Shown here one piece after another: positions 1,180 to 6,962 of a stretch of DNA of 64,000 nt. This stretch comes from a virus. Position numbers and translations under genes: made by a program. Numbering within the stretch: position 1 is the first letter of the stretch; the number at the start of each line of letters is the position of its first letter. The DNA lies in the IMG/VR virus record IMGVR_UViG_3300020198_000887, positions 1 to 64,000 of that record; one strand, 5' to 3'. The notes under the pieces are model-generated. The model had not been told where the DNA came from. It ran no database searches and saw nothing but the letters and a program-made list of their open reading frames with translations.

Positions 1180-1195
1180 ACATATATAGATTAAA

Positions 1196-1279
1196 AGGAT
1201 AGCTACAGCATCAACCAAATTACAGGTTCGATTCCAGTCCCTATAATGGGACTGCTTAACTGGTAAAGCATCTATCCTG
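1196..1279 (+). ncRNA. Y-RNA/YrlA-like RNA copy 1 (closing stem + CAGCA, reduced permuted tRNA module)
   Basis: AGGATAG pairs with CTATCCT; encloses T-loop GGTTCGATTCC, looped acceptor-like stem AGTCCC-TATAAT-GGGACT and D-arm GCTTAACTGGTAAAGC, in the order T, acceptor, D. Confidence 0.7.
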
Positions 1280-1334: not shown

Positions 1335-2023
1335 ATGAAATTGAGCACACGTGATAGAAACACCCGGGTGAATGTACTTAAATTCGGTGAACTCTTAACA
1401 GGTAATGCTGATGACAATACCGAGCTAAATTTTGGATTGTATGTTACGACCTCTATATGTTGGGGTAAATGCATGACAGTTTGGACATAGTAATCGTAGA
1501 TTCGATAATTCATTATTTGTATTATCACCATCTATGTGATCTAATTCAAGCGAAATTGGTTTAGATAACCATTCGGATAAATTACAAGATGAACATATTG
1601 GGTTAAAAACCCCATTATTAAGTAATTTTATTTTTAATTTATATGAATGGATAGTTGAACCCTTTTGTAGATATTCTTCAATTGGTTTTGATCTTTCTGG
1701 AAATTTTCTTCCACCTAGATTCTGTCCAGTGAAATGACTAGTATCTAAATTAAAATGTTTTATAGCACGTTTCAATGTGGTATAATTCCCACCAGCTGGT
1801 GCAACATTTAATTTTTGTAATACTTGTCTTAAAGATACAGAAGTAACAACAGCGTTTTGTAAATCAGTTAACGTGTATTTAAATAGTTTCATAAAATAAT
1901 CCATTAGAAGTGTAGAGACTTAACAGGTACTACCTACGTTGTATTTATGCAATATGGTAAAGATAAAGTCCAGACCACAAACTATGTTTACTAAATATAG
2001 GTAGTGAAAACTATAGTGGTACG
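1335..2023 (+). mobile_element. group I intron in tRNA-Leu(UAA) after U34
   Basis: core elements AAATTCGGTGAA (P), CAATACCGAGC (Q), GTGTAGAGACT (R), AAGATAAAGTCC (S); 5' exon ends in U, intron ends in G. Confidence 0.9.
1425..1904 (-). CDS. HNH homing endonuclease, antisense within the intron
   Basis: CSSC...LELDHIDGDNTNNELSNLRLLCPNCH zinc-HNH motif; lies between intron Q and R elements. Confidence 0.88.
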   Translation of the reverse strand: MDYFMKLFKYTLTDLQNAVVTSVSLRQVLQKLNVAPAGGNYTTLKRAIKHFNLDTSHFTGQNLGGRKFPERSKPIEEYLQKGSTIHSYKLKIKLLNNGVFNPICSSCNLSEWLSKPISLELDHIDGDNTNNELSNLRLLCPNCHAFTPTYRGRNIQSKI

Positions 2024-2080
2024 AAAATCTGCCGTCGAAAGACTTCCCGGTTCGAGTCCGGGTATCGCTACCAAACAAAT

Positions 2081-2173: not shown

Positions 2174-2178
2174 AGTTT

Positions 2179-2233
2179 ATGATACATTTAGCAGTTTAAA
2201 AAACAAACTTAAAATTTGAAAAAACGTATCCTG
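2179..2233 (+). ncRNA. Y-RNA-like motif copy 2 (short, degenerate)
   Basis: ATGATACATTTAGCAG...CGTATCCTG, close to copy 3 ends (AGGATACATTCAGCAA...CGTATCCGG); A-rich interior. Confidence 0.5.
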
Positions 2234-2419
2234 TATAAATATTATATTCAACAACATATAGAATGGTATGAAATATACAAAGAAGTTGGGTTTGACGAGT
2301 TTGTAAGAAGAACTGGGTATAATTATTCAAAACCAAATTTAGTAACAGCATTTTCTAAATTAGTTCCGAATTTTATTCCACAAAACGGTAAGAAAAGATA
2401 TTCCCCTGTAGCTCAGTAG
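2216..2419 (+). pseudogene. ORF fragment, possibly the C-terminal remnant of an endonuclease-type gene
   Basis: protein-like 67-aa frame with no convincing start/RBS, running into tRNA-Asn. Confidence 0.3.
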
Positions 2420-2670
2420 GTAGAGCAGTTGACTGTCAAAAGGCAGCTTCTATTGGAAACAATAGTTGAAAAATCCATCAAATTCGGTGAAACCTAAAAT
2501 CGTATGAATATGGCAATACCGAGCCAAGCCTGGAAATAGGAAGGTGTAGAGACTAGACGGTGGAGACCTAAGTTCATAAGAATATGGTCGTGGTATAGTC
2601 CAGAGAGTAATGAAAATTGCACAAATCTGTAATCAATTGGTCGGCGGTTCGAGCCCGTCCGGGGGAGCCA
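2402..2670 (+). tRNA. trnN: tRNA-Asn(GUU), intron-containing; exons 2402-2436 and 2630-2670
   Basis: TCCCCTG/CGGGGGA + GCCA; spliced anticodon arm GTTGA-CTGT|TAA-TCAAT. Confidence 0.88.
2437..2629 (+). mobile_element. compact group I intron (193 nt, no ORF) between anticodon positions 35 and 36
   Basis: P1 CTGT|C-AAAA-GGCAG with U-G at the splice site; AAATTCGGTGAAACC, GGCAATACCGAGCC, GGTGTAGAGACT, GGTATAGTCC; terminal G. Confidence 0.88.
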
Positions 2671-2675
2671 AAATG

Positions 2676-3362: not shown

Positions 3363-3371
3363 GGATATAAT

Positions 3372-3581
3372 ATGTCAACAGTTAGTAAATCAAGCAGACC
3401 ACGTAATGCACCTGGTAAAACACGTAATGGTAAAGTTAAAATTGTTTCACTTACATTATATCAACTACAAGAAATGATAGCAACTGTACATAGACCACGT
3501 GATAAATGTAAATATCAAAATTATATAAATGTTCTTATTAAAAAGGTAAATAAAAATGGCCGTAGAAATAATAAAATGTAG
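3372..3581 (+). CDS. small basic hypothetical protein
   Basis: AAGGA RBS; 69-aa ORF. Confidence 0.6.
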   Translation: MSTVSKSSRPRNAPGKTRNGKVKIVSLTLYQLQEMIATVHRPRDKCKYQNYINVLIKKVNKNGRRNNKM

Positions 3582-3708
3582 TTGTTCAGGCACACCAGCT
3601 GCTGAATTCCAAGACAAAACATATGGAAAAGGTATGCGAGTTATGAATTTAGATTTTAAAAAAGTAAACGCAACTTGTACAGTATGCGGTGCTAAACATA
3701 GGAATTAA
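3556..3708 (+). CDS. small zinc-ribbon protein (50 aa)
   Basis: MAVEIIKCSC...QDKTYGKGMRV...CTVCG; AAGGT RBS. Confidence 0.6.
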   Translation: MAVEIIKCSCSGTPAAEFQDKTYGKGMRVMNLDFKKVNATCTVCGAKHRN

Positions 3709-3716
3709 AGAATACA

Positions 3717-3792
3717 GCCCCTGTAGCTCAGTTGGTAGAGCGATTCACTTAAAGTGAGGATGATGTGGGTTCAAATCCTGTCGGGGGCCCCA
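3717..3792 (+). tRNA. tRNA with Thr-like class I body but anticodon loop CTTAAAG (UAA); function uncertain
   Basis: GCCCCTG/CGGGGGC + CCCA; canonical D and T arms; short variable loop. Confidence 0.65.
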
Positions 3793-3797
3793 ATTTT

Positions 3798-3909
3798 AGG
3801 ATACATTCAGCAAATCTAAAGCACCCTAGATGTCGTAGGTTCAAATCCTACATTCTCATAATGAGAATTAGCTCAGTTGGTAGAGCGCCAGGCTAAAAAC
3901 ACGTATCCG
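3798..3909 (+). ncRNA. Y-RNA/YrlA-like RNA copy 3 with a complete circularly permuted tRNA domain
   Basis: GGATAC/GTATCC closing stem + TTCAGCAA; CCTAG, ATGTC, T arm GTAGGTTCAAATCCTAC, ATTCTCA-TAA-TGAGAAT, TA, D arm GCTCAGTTGGTAGAGC, G, CCAGG. Confidence 0.82.
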
Positions 3910-3931
3910 GTTTTAATTACACGAGGCAAAC

Positions 3932-4207
3932 ATGACAACACAAGTAACAGCAAGACATATTTTAGTTGATACACTAGAAGAAGCGCAAGCATTAGCAAAA
4001 CAAATCAATGAAGGTTCAGATTTTGCACGATTGGCCAGACAACATTCAAAATGTCCTAGTGGAAAAAACGGTGGTGATTTGGGTACATTTGGCCGTGGAA
4101 TGATGGTTCAACCATTCGAAAATATTTCATTTGAACTAGAAATTGATGGGGTGAGTGACCCAGTACAAACACAGTTTGGGTATCACCTAATCAACAGAAC
4201 TGCATAA
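3932..4207 (+). CDS. ppiC: parvulin-type peptidyl-prolyl isomerase
   Basis: ARHILV, FARLARQHSKCPSGKNGGDLG, VQTQFGYHLI. Confidence 0.93.
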   Translation: MTTQVTARHILVDTLEEAQALAKQINEGSDFARLARQHSKCPSGKNGGDLGTFGRGMMVQPFENISFELEIDGVSDPVQTQFGYHLINRTA

Positions 4208-4208
4208 A

Positions 4209-4493
4209 ATGACATACCAAATTATTAACGAACGTGTTCTGGTTAAAAAACCAAACGACCCTAAAAAATCAGCATTTGGAATCATCATTGCCAATGACTC
4301 TTCTGAAAAAACTATTACTGGTGAAGTAATTGGAATTGGTGAAGGAAAACCATTGGAAAATGGTGATTATAGACCAATGACAGTTAAGGTGGGCGACAAA
4401 GTAATGCTACCGAACGGTATTGGGATTGAAGTAACGATTGATGAGCAAGAATGCATTGTTATTAAAGAAGATGATATTCTGTTAATAATGTAA
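4209..4493 (+). CDS. groES: co-chaperonin GroES
   Basis: ERVLVK...GIII...GEVIGIGEG...PMTVKVGDKV...IKEDDIL. Confidence 0.9.
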   Translation: MTYQIINERVLVKKPNDPKKSAFGIIIANDSSEKTITGEVIGIGEGKPLENGDYRPMTVKVGDKVMLPNGIGIEVTIDEQECIVIKEDDILLIM

Positions 4494-4500
4494 TGAAAAA

Positions 4501-4585
4501 GGGTTAGTTTCAGCAATATTATTGTACATGAAAAATACCAGACGCCAGGTAGGGAAATAAGCAATACCCAATGGCGACTAACCCG
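4501..4585 (+). ncRNA. Y-RNA-like motif copy 4
   Basis: GGGTTAGT/ACTAACCC stem, TTCAGCAA, internal CGCCA...TGGCG helix. Confidence 0.65.
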
Positions 4586-4592
4586 TATAAAT

Positions 4593-4677
4593 GCTGAAGT
4601 GACAGAATGGTTATGTACCGGTCTGCAAAACCGTAATTCCGAAAGGTAGTGTGGGTTCGTCCCAATCTTCAGCTCCA
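4593..4677 (+). tRNA. trnC: tRNA-Cys(GCA), atypical (long variable region, short T loop)
   Basis: GCTGAAG/CTTCAGC + TCCA (U73); loop CTGCAAA; extra CC-GAAA-GG arm. Confidence 0.7.
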
Positions 4678-4684
4678 TATTGTT

Positions 4685-4895
4685 AGGATGGGTTCCGCAA
4701 TAAAATTTAATTAATTCTATTAGTATAAATGCTACACTGGATGTATACAGTTATATGTAATGGATATTGCTAGAAAGAGTAACTAGATATGCTCCAATCT
4801 GAATATTGGATATTTCTTATAGAAATAAGATATGGTTGCGGATTATATCTGATGACAACCAGAAACAATAAAATACATCAAATCCGACCATCCCG
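4685..4895 (+). ncRNA. Y-RNA-like motif copy 5 with ~180-nt multi-hairpin insert
   Basis: GGATGG/CCATCC stem with GTTCCGCAA; internal hairpins such as TCCAAT/ATTGGA and TGGTTG/CAACCA. Confidence 0.55.
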
Positions 4896-5143: not shown

Positions 5144-5171
5144 TTGACACCATTCCAAACTCTGCTTTAAT
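5144..5171 (+). promoter_or_regulatory. sigma70-type promoter of the TROVE-like gene
   Basis: TTGACA, 16-nt spacer, TG-N-TTTAAT. Confidence 0.55.
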
Positions 5172-5179
5172 ACAATTAT

Positions 5180-5219
5180 AGATTAGTAACAGCAATCAAG
5201 ATTACTACATACTAACCTG
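5180..5219 (+). promoter_or_regulatory. Y-RNA-like motif copy 6 in the 5' leader of the TROVE-like gene
   Basis: AGATTAGTA/TACTAACCT with ACAGCAA, ending 5 nt before the AGGAG RBS. Confidence 0.6.
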
Positions 5220-5234
5220 AAATAGGAGATATTC

Positions 5235-6746
5235 ATGACTACATTCGTAGAAGACGCACGAGAACAAGAATCACGCATATCAAATGGGGTGGCTGCTCAT
5301 AAGACCACTACCAATAAAGCAGTGGATTTATTCTTTAATATTGGTGCAAGTAGAGGAAAGGACATTATTCCAGCGTTTACCGCAGCATATGCGGAAAACA
5401 AAGATCTAGCACTTCGTATTGCATTATGGGCGCGTGATGCTCGAGGTGGTGCAGGTGAACGTAAATTGTTCAGAGATATTCTTGTGCATTTAGAAACTGT
5501 TGACACCGATGCTGCAAAAGCATTAATTAATAAAACAATATTGGTAGGAAGGTGGGATGACTTATTAGTGTTTAAGACACCGGAATTGCAACAAGTGGCT
5601 TTCACTAAAATTAAAAACACACTTGTTGCAGGAATACAAGCTAAATCATTATTAGATAGATTTGATGCAATGACTGAAGAAGAAACACTAAAACAAAAAC
5701 TTCAATCACAAATATTCGAAGCAAAATTAGTTGCAAAATGGATGCCTCGTGAAAACTCGGCAAAAAGAAAAATTGCTCAAAAATTAATTAAATTTTTTGG
5801 ATGGTCGCCAAAATATTATCGTAAAACATTGGTTTCATTGACTTCGGTGGTTGAAAACAAAATGTGTGCGAATGATTGGGATAATATTAACTTCAGTCAT
5901 GTTCCATCTTTAGCTAGCTCACGTTATAAAAAAGCGTTTAATCGTCATACACCAAAATTTGCTGAATATGTACAATCATTGATCAACGGTGAACCAACTG
6001 TCAAAGTCAATGCTGGTGCAGTATACCCATATGATATTATTAAAGGAATTGGTATATATGGGTATGATAAAACTGAAAATGCCCATATCGTTGCACAATG
6101 GGATTCTCTTCCAAATTATGTAGGTGATGCTAATATTTTACCTTTGGTTGATGTTAGTGGGTCTATGCAGTGTAGAGCTGGTGGTAATAAATCCAACTCA
6201 GATGTCACGTGTATGGATGTAGCAGTATCCTTGGGGTTATATATAGCTAATAAAAATTCTGGTAAATTTAAAGATACCTTTATCACGTTTAGTGAAACCC
6301 CTGAATTGCGCACATTGCGTGGTAATATTGTGGAAAAAGCAACACAAATGATTGCCTCAAATTGGGGTATGGGAACTAATTTACACGCTGCATTTGACTT
6401 GATTTTAGACGTAGCAACCAAGTTTGATGTTCCACAAAGTGAAATGCCAGAAATGCTACTTATTCTGACGGATATGCAATTTAATTGCTGCACACATTAT
6501 GATGATAGTGCAATTAAAATGATTGAACGTAAGTATACCGCAGCTGGTTATAACACCCCGTTGGTTGTATTTTGGAATATCAATTCATCTGATAACGTCC
6601 CAGTGAAAGCAGACAAATCAGGTGCAGCATTGGTTTCAGGGTTTAGTTCTGCTATCGTTAAATCATTATTGGCAGCTGATATGGGTAATTTCACACCAGA
6701 AGGCATTTGTCTTAACACAGTAATGATTGATAGATATACTATTTAA
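5235..6746 (+). CDS. TROVE/Ro60-like protein with C-terminal vWA domain (DUF2828-type)
   Basis: helical N-terminal region (RDARGGAGER, GRWDDL, AKWMPRE); MIDAS DVSGSM, GTNL, LTDMQF, VFWNI, LVSGFS. Confidence 0.82.
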   Translation: MTTFVEDAREQESRISNGVAAHKTTTNKAVDLFFNIGASRGKDIIPAFTAAYAENKDLALRIALWARDARGGAGERKLFRDILVHLETVDTDAAKALINKTILVGRWDDLLVFKTPELQQVAFTKIKNTLVAGIQAKSLLDRFDAMTEEETLKQKLQSQIFEAKLVAKWMPRENSAKRKIAQKLIKFFGWSPKYYRKTLVSLTSVVENKMCANDWDNINFSHVPSLASSRYKKAFNRHTPKFAEYVQSLINGEPTVKVNAGAVYPYDIIKGIGIYGYDKTENAHIVAQWDSLPNYVGDANILPLVDVSGSMQCRAGGNKSNSDVTCMDVAVSLGLYIANKNSGKFKDTFITFSETPELRTLRGNIVEKATQMIASNWGMGTNLHAAFDLILDVATKFDVPQSEMPEMLLILTDMQFNCCTHYDDSAIKMIERKYTAAGYNTPLVVFWNINSSDNVPVKADKSGAALVSGFSSAIVKSLLAADMGNFTPEGICLNTVMIDRYTI

Positions 6747-6831: not shown

Positions 6832-6862
6832 ACCTTATACCTTCATGGTATAGGGTTTTTTG
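6832..6862 (+). terminator. intrinsic terminator
   Basis: ACCTTATACC-TTCAT-GGTATAGGGT followed by T-run. Confidence 0.7.
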
Positions 6863-6962
6863 CTATAGAGTATAAAAAATAGTTGATATCAGCCAAAATA
6901 CTGACTAAACTTTTTATATATTGTAGGTAGACTACAATACACCGTCCATCGGAGCAAGACTT

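What the first reader, a model, noticed from the sequence alone, without database searches (positions are those of the whole stretch)
5144..5237. Minimal copy of the RNA handle next to the RBS of the TROVE-like gene: possible autoregulation
Seen: promoter-like TTGACA..TTTAAT, then motif copy 6 (5180-5219) ending 5 nt before AGGAG and 15 nt before the ATG. Inference: free protein binds its own mRNA leader once the trans-acting RNAs are saturated. Its position independently links the motif to this protein.
Basis: inference. Interest (0 to 1): 0.7.

Follow-up and report, generated by a model that had tools for sequence, protein, structure and literature searches.

The report
Partner-RNA handle in Ro60-like gene's leader
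Just before the start of a lake phage's gene for a Ro60-shaped RNA-binding protein sits a stripped-down, weakened copy of the handle carried by the phage's Y-RNA-like small RNAs; nearly all relatives keep it there, so the protein probably binds its own message and limits its own synthesis, though no binding has been shown.

Summary
Observation confirmed, with refined coordinates. A helix (5179-5187 with 5211-5219, one A.C mismatch) encloses unpaired CAGCAA (5190-5195). It ends 5 nt before AGGAG and 15 nt before the ATG, behind a TTGACA-16-TTTAAT promoter.

In the window alone the copy is weak: its fold is no better than shuffles, and 26% of random sites have an equally good helix. Comparison settles it. 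About 75 of 80 related phage loci carry the same element, ending 10-15 nt before the ATG in 54 of 62 distinct leaders. Five of eight helix pairs change on both sides.

A covariance model built only from relatives' leaders finds this copy (28.9 bits, E 0.0015) and three upstream array RNAs; nothing else in the 142-kb record reaches E 1. The protein (DUF2828 + DUF7788) folds as a full-length Ro60 ring.

Leader copies are always small and have weaker helices than array copies. In the window's subclade, promoter, handle, SD and gene form one conserved cassette.

Autoregulation is plausible (about 0.5) but untested. The main rival is a co-transcribed, excised small RNA. Earlier notes of this scan report the same arrangement in other genomes; I found no paper describing it.

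The parts
5144..5149 (+). -35-like hexamer TTGACA
   Evidence: It is conserved as TTGACA in L004 and L006 at the aligned place, and conservation among the four nearest loci begins here.
5166..5171 (+). -10-like hexamer TTTAAT, 16-nt spacer
   Evidence: It aligns with TATAAT of L003, L006 and L004. The consensus scan does not list it. The expected transcription start, about 5177-5180, falls at the first base of the helix.
5179..5187 (+). 5' strand of the handle helix (UAGAUUAGU)
   Evidence: Pairs with 5211-5219: 8 pairs and one A.C mismatch. The homologous helix covaries in relatives.
5190..5195 (+). unpaired CAGCAA motif, 2 nt after the 5' strand
   Evidence: C, G, C and A of the motif are invariant in 62 distinct leaders. 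The same motif is present in the array RNAs.
5211..5219 (+). 3' strand of the handle helix (ACUAACCUG)
   Evidence: Invariant in the four nearest loci. CCUG (5216-5219) can alternatively pair with UAGG (5223-5226).
5225..5229 (+). Shine-Dalgarno AGGAG, 5 nt after the helix
   Evidence: In relatives the helix ends 10-15 nt before the ATG in 54 of 62 distinct leaders.
5235..6746 (+). gene for a 503-aa Ro60-shaped protein (DUF2828 + DUF7788 vWA, DVSGSM MIDAS-like motif)
   Evidence: Pfam; phrog_850 'RNA-binding protein'; start MTTFVE conserved; AF2 model pLDDT 93.9; top 13 PDB fold hits are all Ro60/TROVE.
6832..6866 (+). terminator-like hairpin plus T run after the gene
   Evidence: Together with the promoter it makes a self-contained unit: promoter, handle, SD, ORF, terminator.
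4501..4585 (+). array RNA with the same handle (GGGUUAGU, UU, CAGCAA ... ACUAACCC), followed by a tRNA-like element at 4593-4674
   Evidence: R1 25.6 bits, E 0.007; fold z -3.2; Rfam tRNA 39 bits for 4593-4674.
4684..4895 (+). long array RNA with the variant motif CCGCAA (AGGAUGG ... CCAUCC)
   Evidence: Read. It resembles the 200-260-nt array members of relatives. R1 does not reach it.
3797..3910 (+). array RNA with a permuted tRNA-like domain (YrlA-like)
   Evidence: Rfam YrlA 36.5 bits, E 1.3e-5, below the gathering score of 69; fold z -3.5.
2178..2233 (+). small array RNA (helix GAUAC/GUAUC, motif variant UAGCAG)
   Evidence: R1 32.8 bits; R2 25.7 bits.
1195..1279 (+). array RNA (AGGAUAG, CUA, CAGCAU ... 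CUAUCCUG) with T- and D-arm-like hairpins
   Evidence: R1 17 bits, E 0.44; fold z -3.3.

Best explanation
The leader is a cis-encoded, minimal and deliberately weak copy of the RNA handle: a terminal helix closed by U.G, A-U and G-C pairs, plus an unpaired CAGCAA. The phage's Ro60-shaped protein is presumed to recognise this handle on its Y-RNA-like partner RNAs. The mRNA starts at, or within a few bases of, the first base of the helix, and the helix ends 5 nt before the SD.

Proposed mechanism: once the stronger handles of the array RNAs are occupied, surplus protein binds the leader handle. Sitting inside the 30S footprint, it blocks initiation, giving negative translational feedback by ligand mimicry.

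Shown here: the element, its conservation and covariation, its position, its weaker helix, and the Ro60 fold of the protein.

Inferred: that this protein binds the handle at all, that it binds the leader copy, and that binding represses rather than stabilises.
For: 1. About 75 of 80 related loci carry helix + CAGCAA just before the SD. The helix ends 10-15 nt before the ATG in 54 of 62 distinct leaders.
2. The helix covaries. On A4, 97.4% of cells are paired, 5 of 8 pairs change on both sides, and slid controls give 20-41%. On 70 matches, 96.8% are paired with 120 double-sided cells.
3. R1, built without the window, finds the leader (28.9 bits) and the array RNAs at 2176, 4498 and 1193. Nothing else in the 142-kb record reaches E 1. 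All 70 hits in 47 sources lie on the gene's strand.
4. Leader copies are 36-65 nt, against an array median of 163 nt. Their helices have 2-3 G-C pairs, against 3-4 in the array: -7.6 vs -10.1 kcal/mol, Mann-Whitney p 1.5e-10 on related sequences.
5. In the window's subclade, alignment starts at the -35 hexamer and runs through handle and SD into the ORF; upstream DNA cannot be aligned. The handle therefore travels with the gene, not with the array. Nine of 62 distinct leaders have their own consensus promoter, whose -10 hexamer ends 5-12 nt before the helix.
6. No terminator can fit between the helix and the SD, so the primary mRNA must contain the handle.
7. More distant homologues also have a copy ending 22-37 nt before the ATG: cyanophage BUCT-ZZ01, Campylobacter phage CP30A, Rhizobium phage RHph_I1_18 and Listeria phage A511.
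8. The protein has the Ro60 fold: 1yvr E 2e-9 with TM 0.57, plus phiLo 9kop, D. radiodurans Rsr 2nvo and human 9nen.
9. Overexpression of a mycobacteriophage 'Ro-like RNA-binding protein' (LeBron gp53) is toxic to the host (PMC13148394), which gives a reason to cap synthesis. I did not check that gp53 belongs to this family.
Against: - No binding or expression data exist, and no RNA run holds this DNA.
- In most relatives the leader copy is the last unit of a tandem array spaced 8-10 nt apart, so closeness to the SD could be ordinary phage compaction.
- Small cargo-less copies also occur away from leaders, so small size is not unique to the leader.
- Some homologues have no leader copy: Ahp1, JH2 and an Erwinia jumbo phage. 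Whirlwind and S13 have handles only downstream.
- In A511 and the Rhizobium phage the copy next to the gene is not minimal.
- In the window itself the helix is weak and not better than chance.
- The weaker-helix statistic counts related sequences, which amount to only about 6-8 independent helix types.
- The sign of any regulation is unknown. A 5'-terminal protein-bound hairpin could stabilise the mRNA instead.
Confidence: 0.5

Rival explanations
1. The element is only the last small RNA of the array. It is co-transcribed with the gene and cut out by the nuclease that releases the other members, and it then serves in trans as a cargo-less partner or gate RNA. It has no regulatory effect on the mRNA.
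For: In most relatives it sits 8-10 nt after the previous array member, with the same UU-UAG...CUG-UU flanks. Similar small copies exist elsewhere in arrays. In canonical Ro60 loci the Y RNAs also lie next to or upstream of the gene (PMC4201824, PMC12135203). In A511 and the Rhizobium phage the copy nearest the gene carries cargo.
Against: When the array is displaced by about 300 nt and a promoter is inserted, the copy stays attached to the SD and the cassette is conserved as a unit. Leader copies form their own helix classes (UAGAAUGY, UAGGUUAW) that are weaker than the array's UAGGAU class. This class division is unexpected for interchangeable trans-acting members.
Confidence: 0.3
2. The element is a cis-acting 5' element with a positive or switching role. 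The 5'-terminal helix, alone or bound by protein, protects the mRNA from 5'-end-dependent decay. Alternatively, forming the handle helix frees the SD from an alternative CCUG/UAGG pairing, so that the protein activates its own translation.
For: The expected transcription start coincides with the first base of the helix. CCUG-N3-UAGG is invariant in the four nearest loci, and the minimum-energy folds of the window and L003 leaders use that pairing. Ro60 is known to stabilise its Y RNAs (established knowledge on Ro60).
Against: The alternative hairpin has only 4 pairs and is absent from most relatives. Its conservation may simply reflect conservation of the SD and of the helix strand. A plain stabiliser would not need an invariant unpaired CAGCAA.
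Confidence: 0.13
3. The element is a chance resemblance or a decaying relic with no function in this phage.
For: The helix has a mismatch and the fold is no better than shuffles. A helix this good lies next to 26% of random sites. The model built from non-leader copies (R2) does not find it.
Against: R1 gives E 0.0015. The leader is conserved from the promoter to the ATG among loci whose proteins are about 72% identical by BLASTP. The same element is found in about 75 of 80 relatives with compensatory changes.
Confidence: 0.05

Closest known systems
Ro60 (Rsr) with Y RNAs: bacterial and phage YrlA/YrlB (Chen et al. 2014, PMC4201824; Rfam RF02553) and Thermus phage phiLo Ro60 with Yrl1/Yrl2 (PMC12135203)
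   Same: A ring-shaped HEAT + vWA protein. Partner RNAs are encoded next to the gene, are closed by a helix of their 5' and 3' ends, and carry a short conserved motif just after the 5' strand. At least one carries a tRNA-like domain. cmscan places the window's AGCAA on YrlA's GGCGA.
   Different: The protein has no Pfam TROVE match, only DUF2828 + DUF7788. The motif is CAGCAA, not GNCGAAN0-1G. RNAs come in arrays of up to seven. No handle copy in a Ro60 mRNA leader and no autoregulation of Ro60 appear in the Ro60/Y RNA papers I searched by keyword (PMC4201824, PMC12135203, PMC7824862, PMC11482910).
Autogenous translational control by ligand mimicry: E. coli thrS operator (tRNA-Thr anticodon-arm mimic) and ribosomal-protein operators (L1, S8, L20); phage T4 RegA and gp32, MS2 coat protein (my own knowledge of established systems)
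   Same: A leader element copies the protein's main RNA ligand and lies next to the SD inside the 30S footprint. The operator appears weaker than the primary ligand, so it would be bound only by surplus protein.
   Different: Binding and repression are not shown here. The protein family is different. The element may also be released as an RNA.
Escherichia phage Bas63 gp130 (PhageMaP preprint, PMC11482910)
   Same: A phage protein reported as structurally Ro60-like, lying beside tRNA genes, with the suggestion that some of those are Y RNAs. It is needed against the Ppl defence system.
   Different: No RNA partner, handle motif or leader element is described. The related Felixounavirus JH2 shows no CAGCAA within 300 nt upstream of its homologue. 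I did not check that gp130 belongs to this sequence family.

Membership tests
Ro60/TROVE-Y RNA ribonucleoprotein | Protein is a closed HEAT-repeat ring joined to a vWA domain with a MIDAS motif | tested here: met
   AF2 model with pLDDT 93.9 and pTM 0.92. The top 13 Foldseek PDB hits are all full-length Ro60/TROVE, E 2e-9 to 6e-5, TM 0.46-0.61; the next hits match the vWA domain only. D, S and S of the DVSGSM motif are invariant in 149 sequences.
Ro60/TROVE-Y RNA ribonucleoprotein | Sequence membership in Pfam TROVE (PF05731) | tested here: not met
   Pfam gives only DUF2828 and DUF7788. A profile search against PDB sequences ranks Ro60 first, but only at E 0.06 and only over the MIDAS segment.
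Ro60/TROVE-Y RNA ribonucleoprotein | Partner RNA closed by a 5'/3' helix with the conserved motif GNCGAAN0-1G (vertebrates: GGUCCGA) near the 5' end | tested here: inconclusive
   The architecture is met and covaries. The motif is CAGCAA instead; cmscan aligns it to the YrlA motif position.
Ro60/TROVE-Y RNA ribonucleoprotein | At least one partner RNA has a tRNA-like domain (YrlA, Rfam RF02553) | tested here: inconclusive
   Region 3807-3913 scores 36.5 bits, E 1.3e-5, below the gathering score of 69. The leader copy itself has no such domain.
Ro60/TROVE-Y RNA ribonucleoprotein | The protein binds the RNA | not testable with these tools
   No RNA-protein docking tool was available and no RNA run was found.
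Autogenous translational operator by ligand mimicry | Leader element resembles the protein's (presumed) primary RNA ligand | tested here: met
   The leader-derived model R1 finds the array RNAs at 2176, 4498 and 1193 in the window and array RNAs in relatives. The reverse model R2 is too narrow and misses the leader.
Autogenous translational operator by ligand mimicry | Element adjoins or overlaps the ribosome-binding site | tested here: met
   In the window the helix ends 5 nt before the SD and 15 nt before the ATG. It ends 10-15 nt before the ATG in 54 of 62 distinct leaders.
Autogenous translational operator by ligand mimicry | Protein-dependent repression of its own translation | not testable with these tools
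   Needs a reporter fusion, toeprinting or binding assays.
Any Rfam family | Match of the leader element to a curated RNA family | tested here: not met
   Nothing in 5144-5237 reaches a gathering score. The only listing in the E-value search is Mu-gpT-DE at 16 bits, E 3.5.

The most novel reading that the evidence does not exclude
A very large, sequence-divergent phage branch of the Ro60 fold (DUF2828) sets its own level through a Y-RNA-mimic operator. A deliberately weakened, cargo-less handle at the 5' end of its mRNA is bound only after the stronger partner RNAs are filled, matching protein supply to RNA supply. This would be the first autoregulatory circuit described for any Ro60-type protein.
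Probability: 0.4. Interest if true: 0.72.

Novelty: new variant of a known kind. Interest (0 to 1): 0.6.

Why it matters
Ro60 and Y RNAs are studied in autoimmunity and in bacterial RNA quality control, yet how the protein-to-RNA ratio is set is not known. Proteins of this family are encoded by hundreds of cultured phages of E. coli, Salmonella, Vibrio, Listeria, Staphylococcus, Campylobacter and Mycobacterium. A structurally Ro60-like phage protein, Bas63 gp130, is reported to counter a defence system (PMC11482910).

A short, covarying handle (8-bp helix plus CAGCAA) gives a direct handle for experiments:
- a candidate minimal binding site to test with purified protein;
- a ready-made pair of strong and weak sites for affinity comparison;
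- a simple reporter test for feedback.

It also helps annotation. These RNAs are unannotated or mis-called as odd tRNAs in public phage records.

Tried and rejected
Contexts came from the search for related loci instead.
- A single-protein scan of viral contigs found no relative. The alignment query did.
- Megablast against cultured phages found no close DNA relative.
- The first structure prediction, from 19 close homologues, was unusable at pLDDT 54.8. It was replaced by a 149-sequence alignment.
- MAFFT misaligned the 3' strands when loop lengths differed. I used a well-aligned subset (A4) and model-fitted alignments.
- Model R2, built from 17 small non-leader copies, found only 2176-2235 in the window. 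It missed the leader as well as the clear members at 4498 and 1193, so it is too narrow to test membership.
- A simple helix criterion is not discriminating: 26% of random sites pass.
- My loose and 'strict' pattern scans were noisy, with 60 hits on the wrong strand. I use them only for sizes and positions.
- No RNA holder was listed among public runs for this stretch.
- Complex prediction was not used, because it does not take RNA.
- KVP40 has ACAGCAAU before its SD but no convincing helix. S13 has only a 3'-half-like AUAACCUG. I count neither as a leader copy.

Full report
**What is in the window**

The window is the first 64 kb of a 142-kb IMG/VR virus record from lake water.

- ORF 5235-6746 (+) encodes a 503-aa protein with Pfam DUF2828 and DUF7788. 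It also matches phrog_850, 'RNA-binding protein'.
- Its start, MTTFVE, is conserved in 18 homologues, so ATG 5235 is the true start.
- Upstream: TTGACA at 5144-5149; a 16-nt spacer; TTTAAT at 5166-5171; UAGAUUAGU at 5179-5187; AA; CAGCAA at 5190-5195; a 15-nt loop; ACUAACCUG at 5211-5219; AAAUA; AGGAG at 5225-5229; and ATG at 5235.
- A terminator-like hairpin follows the gene at 6832-6866.

**Is the copy more than chance?**

Taken alone, no.

- The fold is -3.0 kcal/mol, z -0.8.
- A helix with 8 of 9 pairs lies beside 26% of random sites.
- CAGCAA occurs 59 times in the window, about twice the 29 expected from shuffles.
- The promoter scan skips the imperfect -10 hexamer.

The decisive evidence is comparative.

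- I fetched 80 related loci whose best tblastn segments are 59-72% identical to the protein. I printed the 110 nt before each start codon.
- About 75 loci show the same design: an 8-bp helix of the form 5'-UAGNNNNN / NNNNNCUG-3', then 2-3 nt, then CAGCAA directly after the 5' strand.
- The helix ends 10-15 nt before the ATG in 54 of 62 distinct leaders.
- Inner helix pairs differ between lineages with matched changes: GGUUAA/UUAACC, GAAUGU/ACAUUC, GAAUGC/GCAUUC, GGAUAC/GUAUCC, GAUUGA/UCAAUC.
- On a clean alignment of 19 leaders that excludes the window, 97.4% of cells pair and 5 of 8 pairs change on both sides (32 cells). Sliding the partner by 1-3 columns gives 20-41%.
- A covariance model from that alignment (R1) was run over the window with filters off. 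It gives four hits above a background of about 13 bits: 2176-2235 (32.8 bits), the leader 5177-5221 (28.9 bits, E 0.0015), 4498-4587 (25.6 bits) and 1193-1281 (17 bits).
- In the whole 142-kb record nothing else reaches E 1.
- Over 47 sources, all 70 hits lie on the gene's strand. Their helix is 96.8% paired, with 120 double-sided cells.

**The family around it**

The window holds seven such elements, read:

| Coordinates | Note |
|---|---|
| about 557-647 | |
| 1195-1279 | |
| 2178-2233 | |
| 3797-3910 | sub-threshold Rfam YrlA hit, 36.5 bits, E 1.3e-5 |
| 4501-4585 | followed by a tRNA-like element |
| 4684-4895 | CCGCAA variant |
| 5179-5219 | the leader copy |

In most relatives the elements form a tandem array directly upstream of the gene, spaced about 8-10 nt apart. 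The leader copy is the last member. For example, L080 has elements at 3369-3419, 3513-3675, 3684-3920 and 3930-3986, with the ATG at 4001.

**The protein**

- With a 149-sequence alignment the AlphaFold model reaches pLDDT 93.9.
- The top 13 Foldseek hits in the PDB are all full-length Ro60/TROVE proteins from Xenopus, human, D. radiodurans and Thermus phage phiLo (E 2e-9 to 6e-5, TM 0.46-0.61). Below them are only vWA domains.
- 'TROVE-like' is therefore right as a fold. By sequence, however, it is not a Pfam TROVE member.
- Cluster L mycobacteriophage homologues are already annotated 'Ro-like RNA binding protein'.

**What separates the leader copy from the array copies**

1. Size. Leader copies are 36-65 nt; the array median is 163 nt. 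Small copies do also occur elsewhere.
2. Helix strength. Leader helices have 2-3 G-C pairs and belong to their own classes (UAGAAUGY, UAGGUUAW; UAGAUUAG with a mismatch in the window). Array helices are mostly UAGGAU-type with 3-4 G-C pairs. Proxy energies are -7.6 vs -10.1 kcal/mol, Mann-Whitney p 1.5e-10. The sequences are related, so the p-value overstates independence.
3. Linkage. In the window's subclade (window, L003, L004, L006) the array lies about 300 nt away. Between it and the leader is unalignable DNA. Conservation starts sharply at the -35 hexamer and runs through the -10, helix, CAGCAA, 3' strand and SD into the ORF.
4. Own promoters. Nine of 62 distinct leaders have their own consensus promoter, whose -10 hexamer ends 5-12 nt before the helix. 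The handle is therefore the 5' end of the mRNA.
5. No room for a terminator. None can fit between the helix and the SD, so the primary mRNA carries the handle.

**Wider distribution**

Among ten more distant homologues at about 30-43% identity:

- A copy ends 22-37 nt before the ATG in cyanophage BUCT-ZZ01, Campylobacter phage CP30A, Rhizobium phage RHph_I1_18 and Listeria phage A511.
- There is none upstream in Aeromonas phage Ahp1, Felixounavirus JH2 or an Erwinia jumbo phage.
- Mycobacteriophage Whirlwind and Cronobacter phage S13 carry handles downstream of the gene.
- KVP40 has ACAGCAAU before its SD but no convincing helix, so I count it in none of these groups.

The gene-to-handle association therefore spans phages of several bacterial phyla, while the position abutting the SD is common but not universal.

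**Mechanism**

I commit to the following. The leader handle is a cis site for the Ro60-shaped protein. Because it lies inside the 30S footprint and is weaker than the array handles, it most likely gives negative translational feedback once the partner RNAs are saturated. This is the logic of the thrS and ribosomal-protein operators, which I cite from established knowledge.

- Shown: structure, conservation, position, weakness, linkage and protein fold.
- Inferred: binding, and the sign of the effect.

The main rival is that the element is only the last excised small RNA of the array. A third reading is a 5' stabiliser or a switch using the conserved CCUG/UAGG alternative pairing seen in the subclade. 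These readings are not mutually exclusive.

**Literature and earlier notes**

- Chen et al. 2014 (PMC4201824) define Y RNAs of canonical TROVE proteins with the motif GNCGAAN0-1G.
- The phiLo study (PMC12135203) places Yrl1 and Yrl2 upstream of its Ro60 gene.
- A preprint notes that Bas63 gp130 is Ro60-like and lies beside tRNA genes (PMC11482910).
- A jumbo-phage survey mentions ROT/TROVE proteins (PMC7824862).
- LeBron gp53, a Ro-like protein, is toxic when overexpressed (PMC13148394).
- My keyword look-ups in the first four of these papers found no mention of a CAGCAA handle family, a leader copy or autoregulation. The five papers that mention DUF2828 at all are on unrelated subjects.
- Earlier AI notes of this scan report the same leader handle in several other genomes, with the same 'partly supported' verdict. 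I treated them as leads and repeated the tests on this DNA.

**Verdict**

I rate it a new variant of a known kind, with interest 0.6.

Noticed in passing
window 2403-2672: A tRNA-like gene is interrupted in its anticodon loop by a group I intron (Rfam Intron_gpI at 2420-2622, 59.5 bits). ARAGORN does not call the split tRNA.
   Followed up: no
window 4593-4674: A tRNA-like element (Rfam tRNA 39 bits, long variable arm, aberrant T loop) sits 8 nt after the handle RNA 4501-4585. ARAGORN does not call it.
   Followed up: no
window 2000-2073: An uncalled tRNA-like sequence lies directly before tRNA-Ser. It has a 7-bp acceptor-like stem ending in CCA and a perfect T arm (CCCGG-UUCGAGU-CCGGG).
   Followed up: no
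AAGAACCUG, with one mismatch and a T-arm-like hairpin (GAAGGUUCAAAUCCUUC). It scores only 10.2 bits with R2.
   Followed up: partly
L084 4351-4593 (Cronobacter phage S13) and L085 about 4080-4330 (Synechococcus phage BUCT-ZZ01): tRNA genes just downstream of the DUF2828 gene carry an insert made of a hairpin plus AUUCAGCA or AUUCUGCAA. In BUCT-ZZ01 the hairpin is GCAUUCUG-UAA-AGAAUG, the same helix as the leader type but closed at the other end. This looks like a circularly permuted handle inside a tRNA. The S13 record annotates these as a 121-nt tRNA-Ser and a 'tRNA-OTHER'; ARAGORN calls none of them.
   Followed up: partly
window 5216-5226; L003, L004 and L006 at the aligned place: CCUG of the handle's 3' strand can pair with UAGG of the SD region (4 bp, 3-nt loop). 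CCUG-A-N-A-UAGG is invariant in the four nearest loci, and the 5' strand opposite the CC is mismatched in all four. This may be a handle/anti-SD switch, or it may be a coincidence of two conserved elements.
   Followed up: partly
window 5637-5735 (residues about 135-168 of the protein): A 33-residue insertion is absent from all 18 close homologues. It is predicted to extend two helices of the HEAT ring.
   Followed up: no
window 3932-4493: A parvulin-type PPIase gene and a Cpn10/GroES gene sit between members of the RNA array.
   Followed up: no
L092 2950-3290 (Mycobacterium phage Whirlwind): Three handle RNAs with GGAC-type helices (GGACAC, GGACCCC, GGACGG), ACAGCAA and 3' ends in CCAG lie downstream of the 'Ro-like' gene. 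One of them has T- and D-arm hairpins. The motif therefore persists in high-GC actinophages.
   Followed up: no
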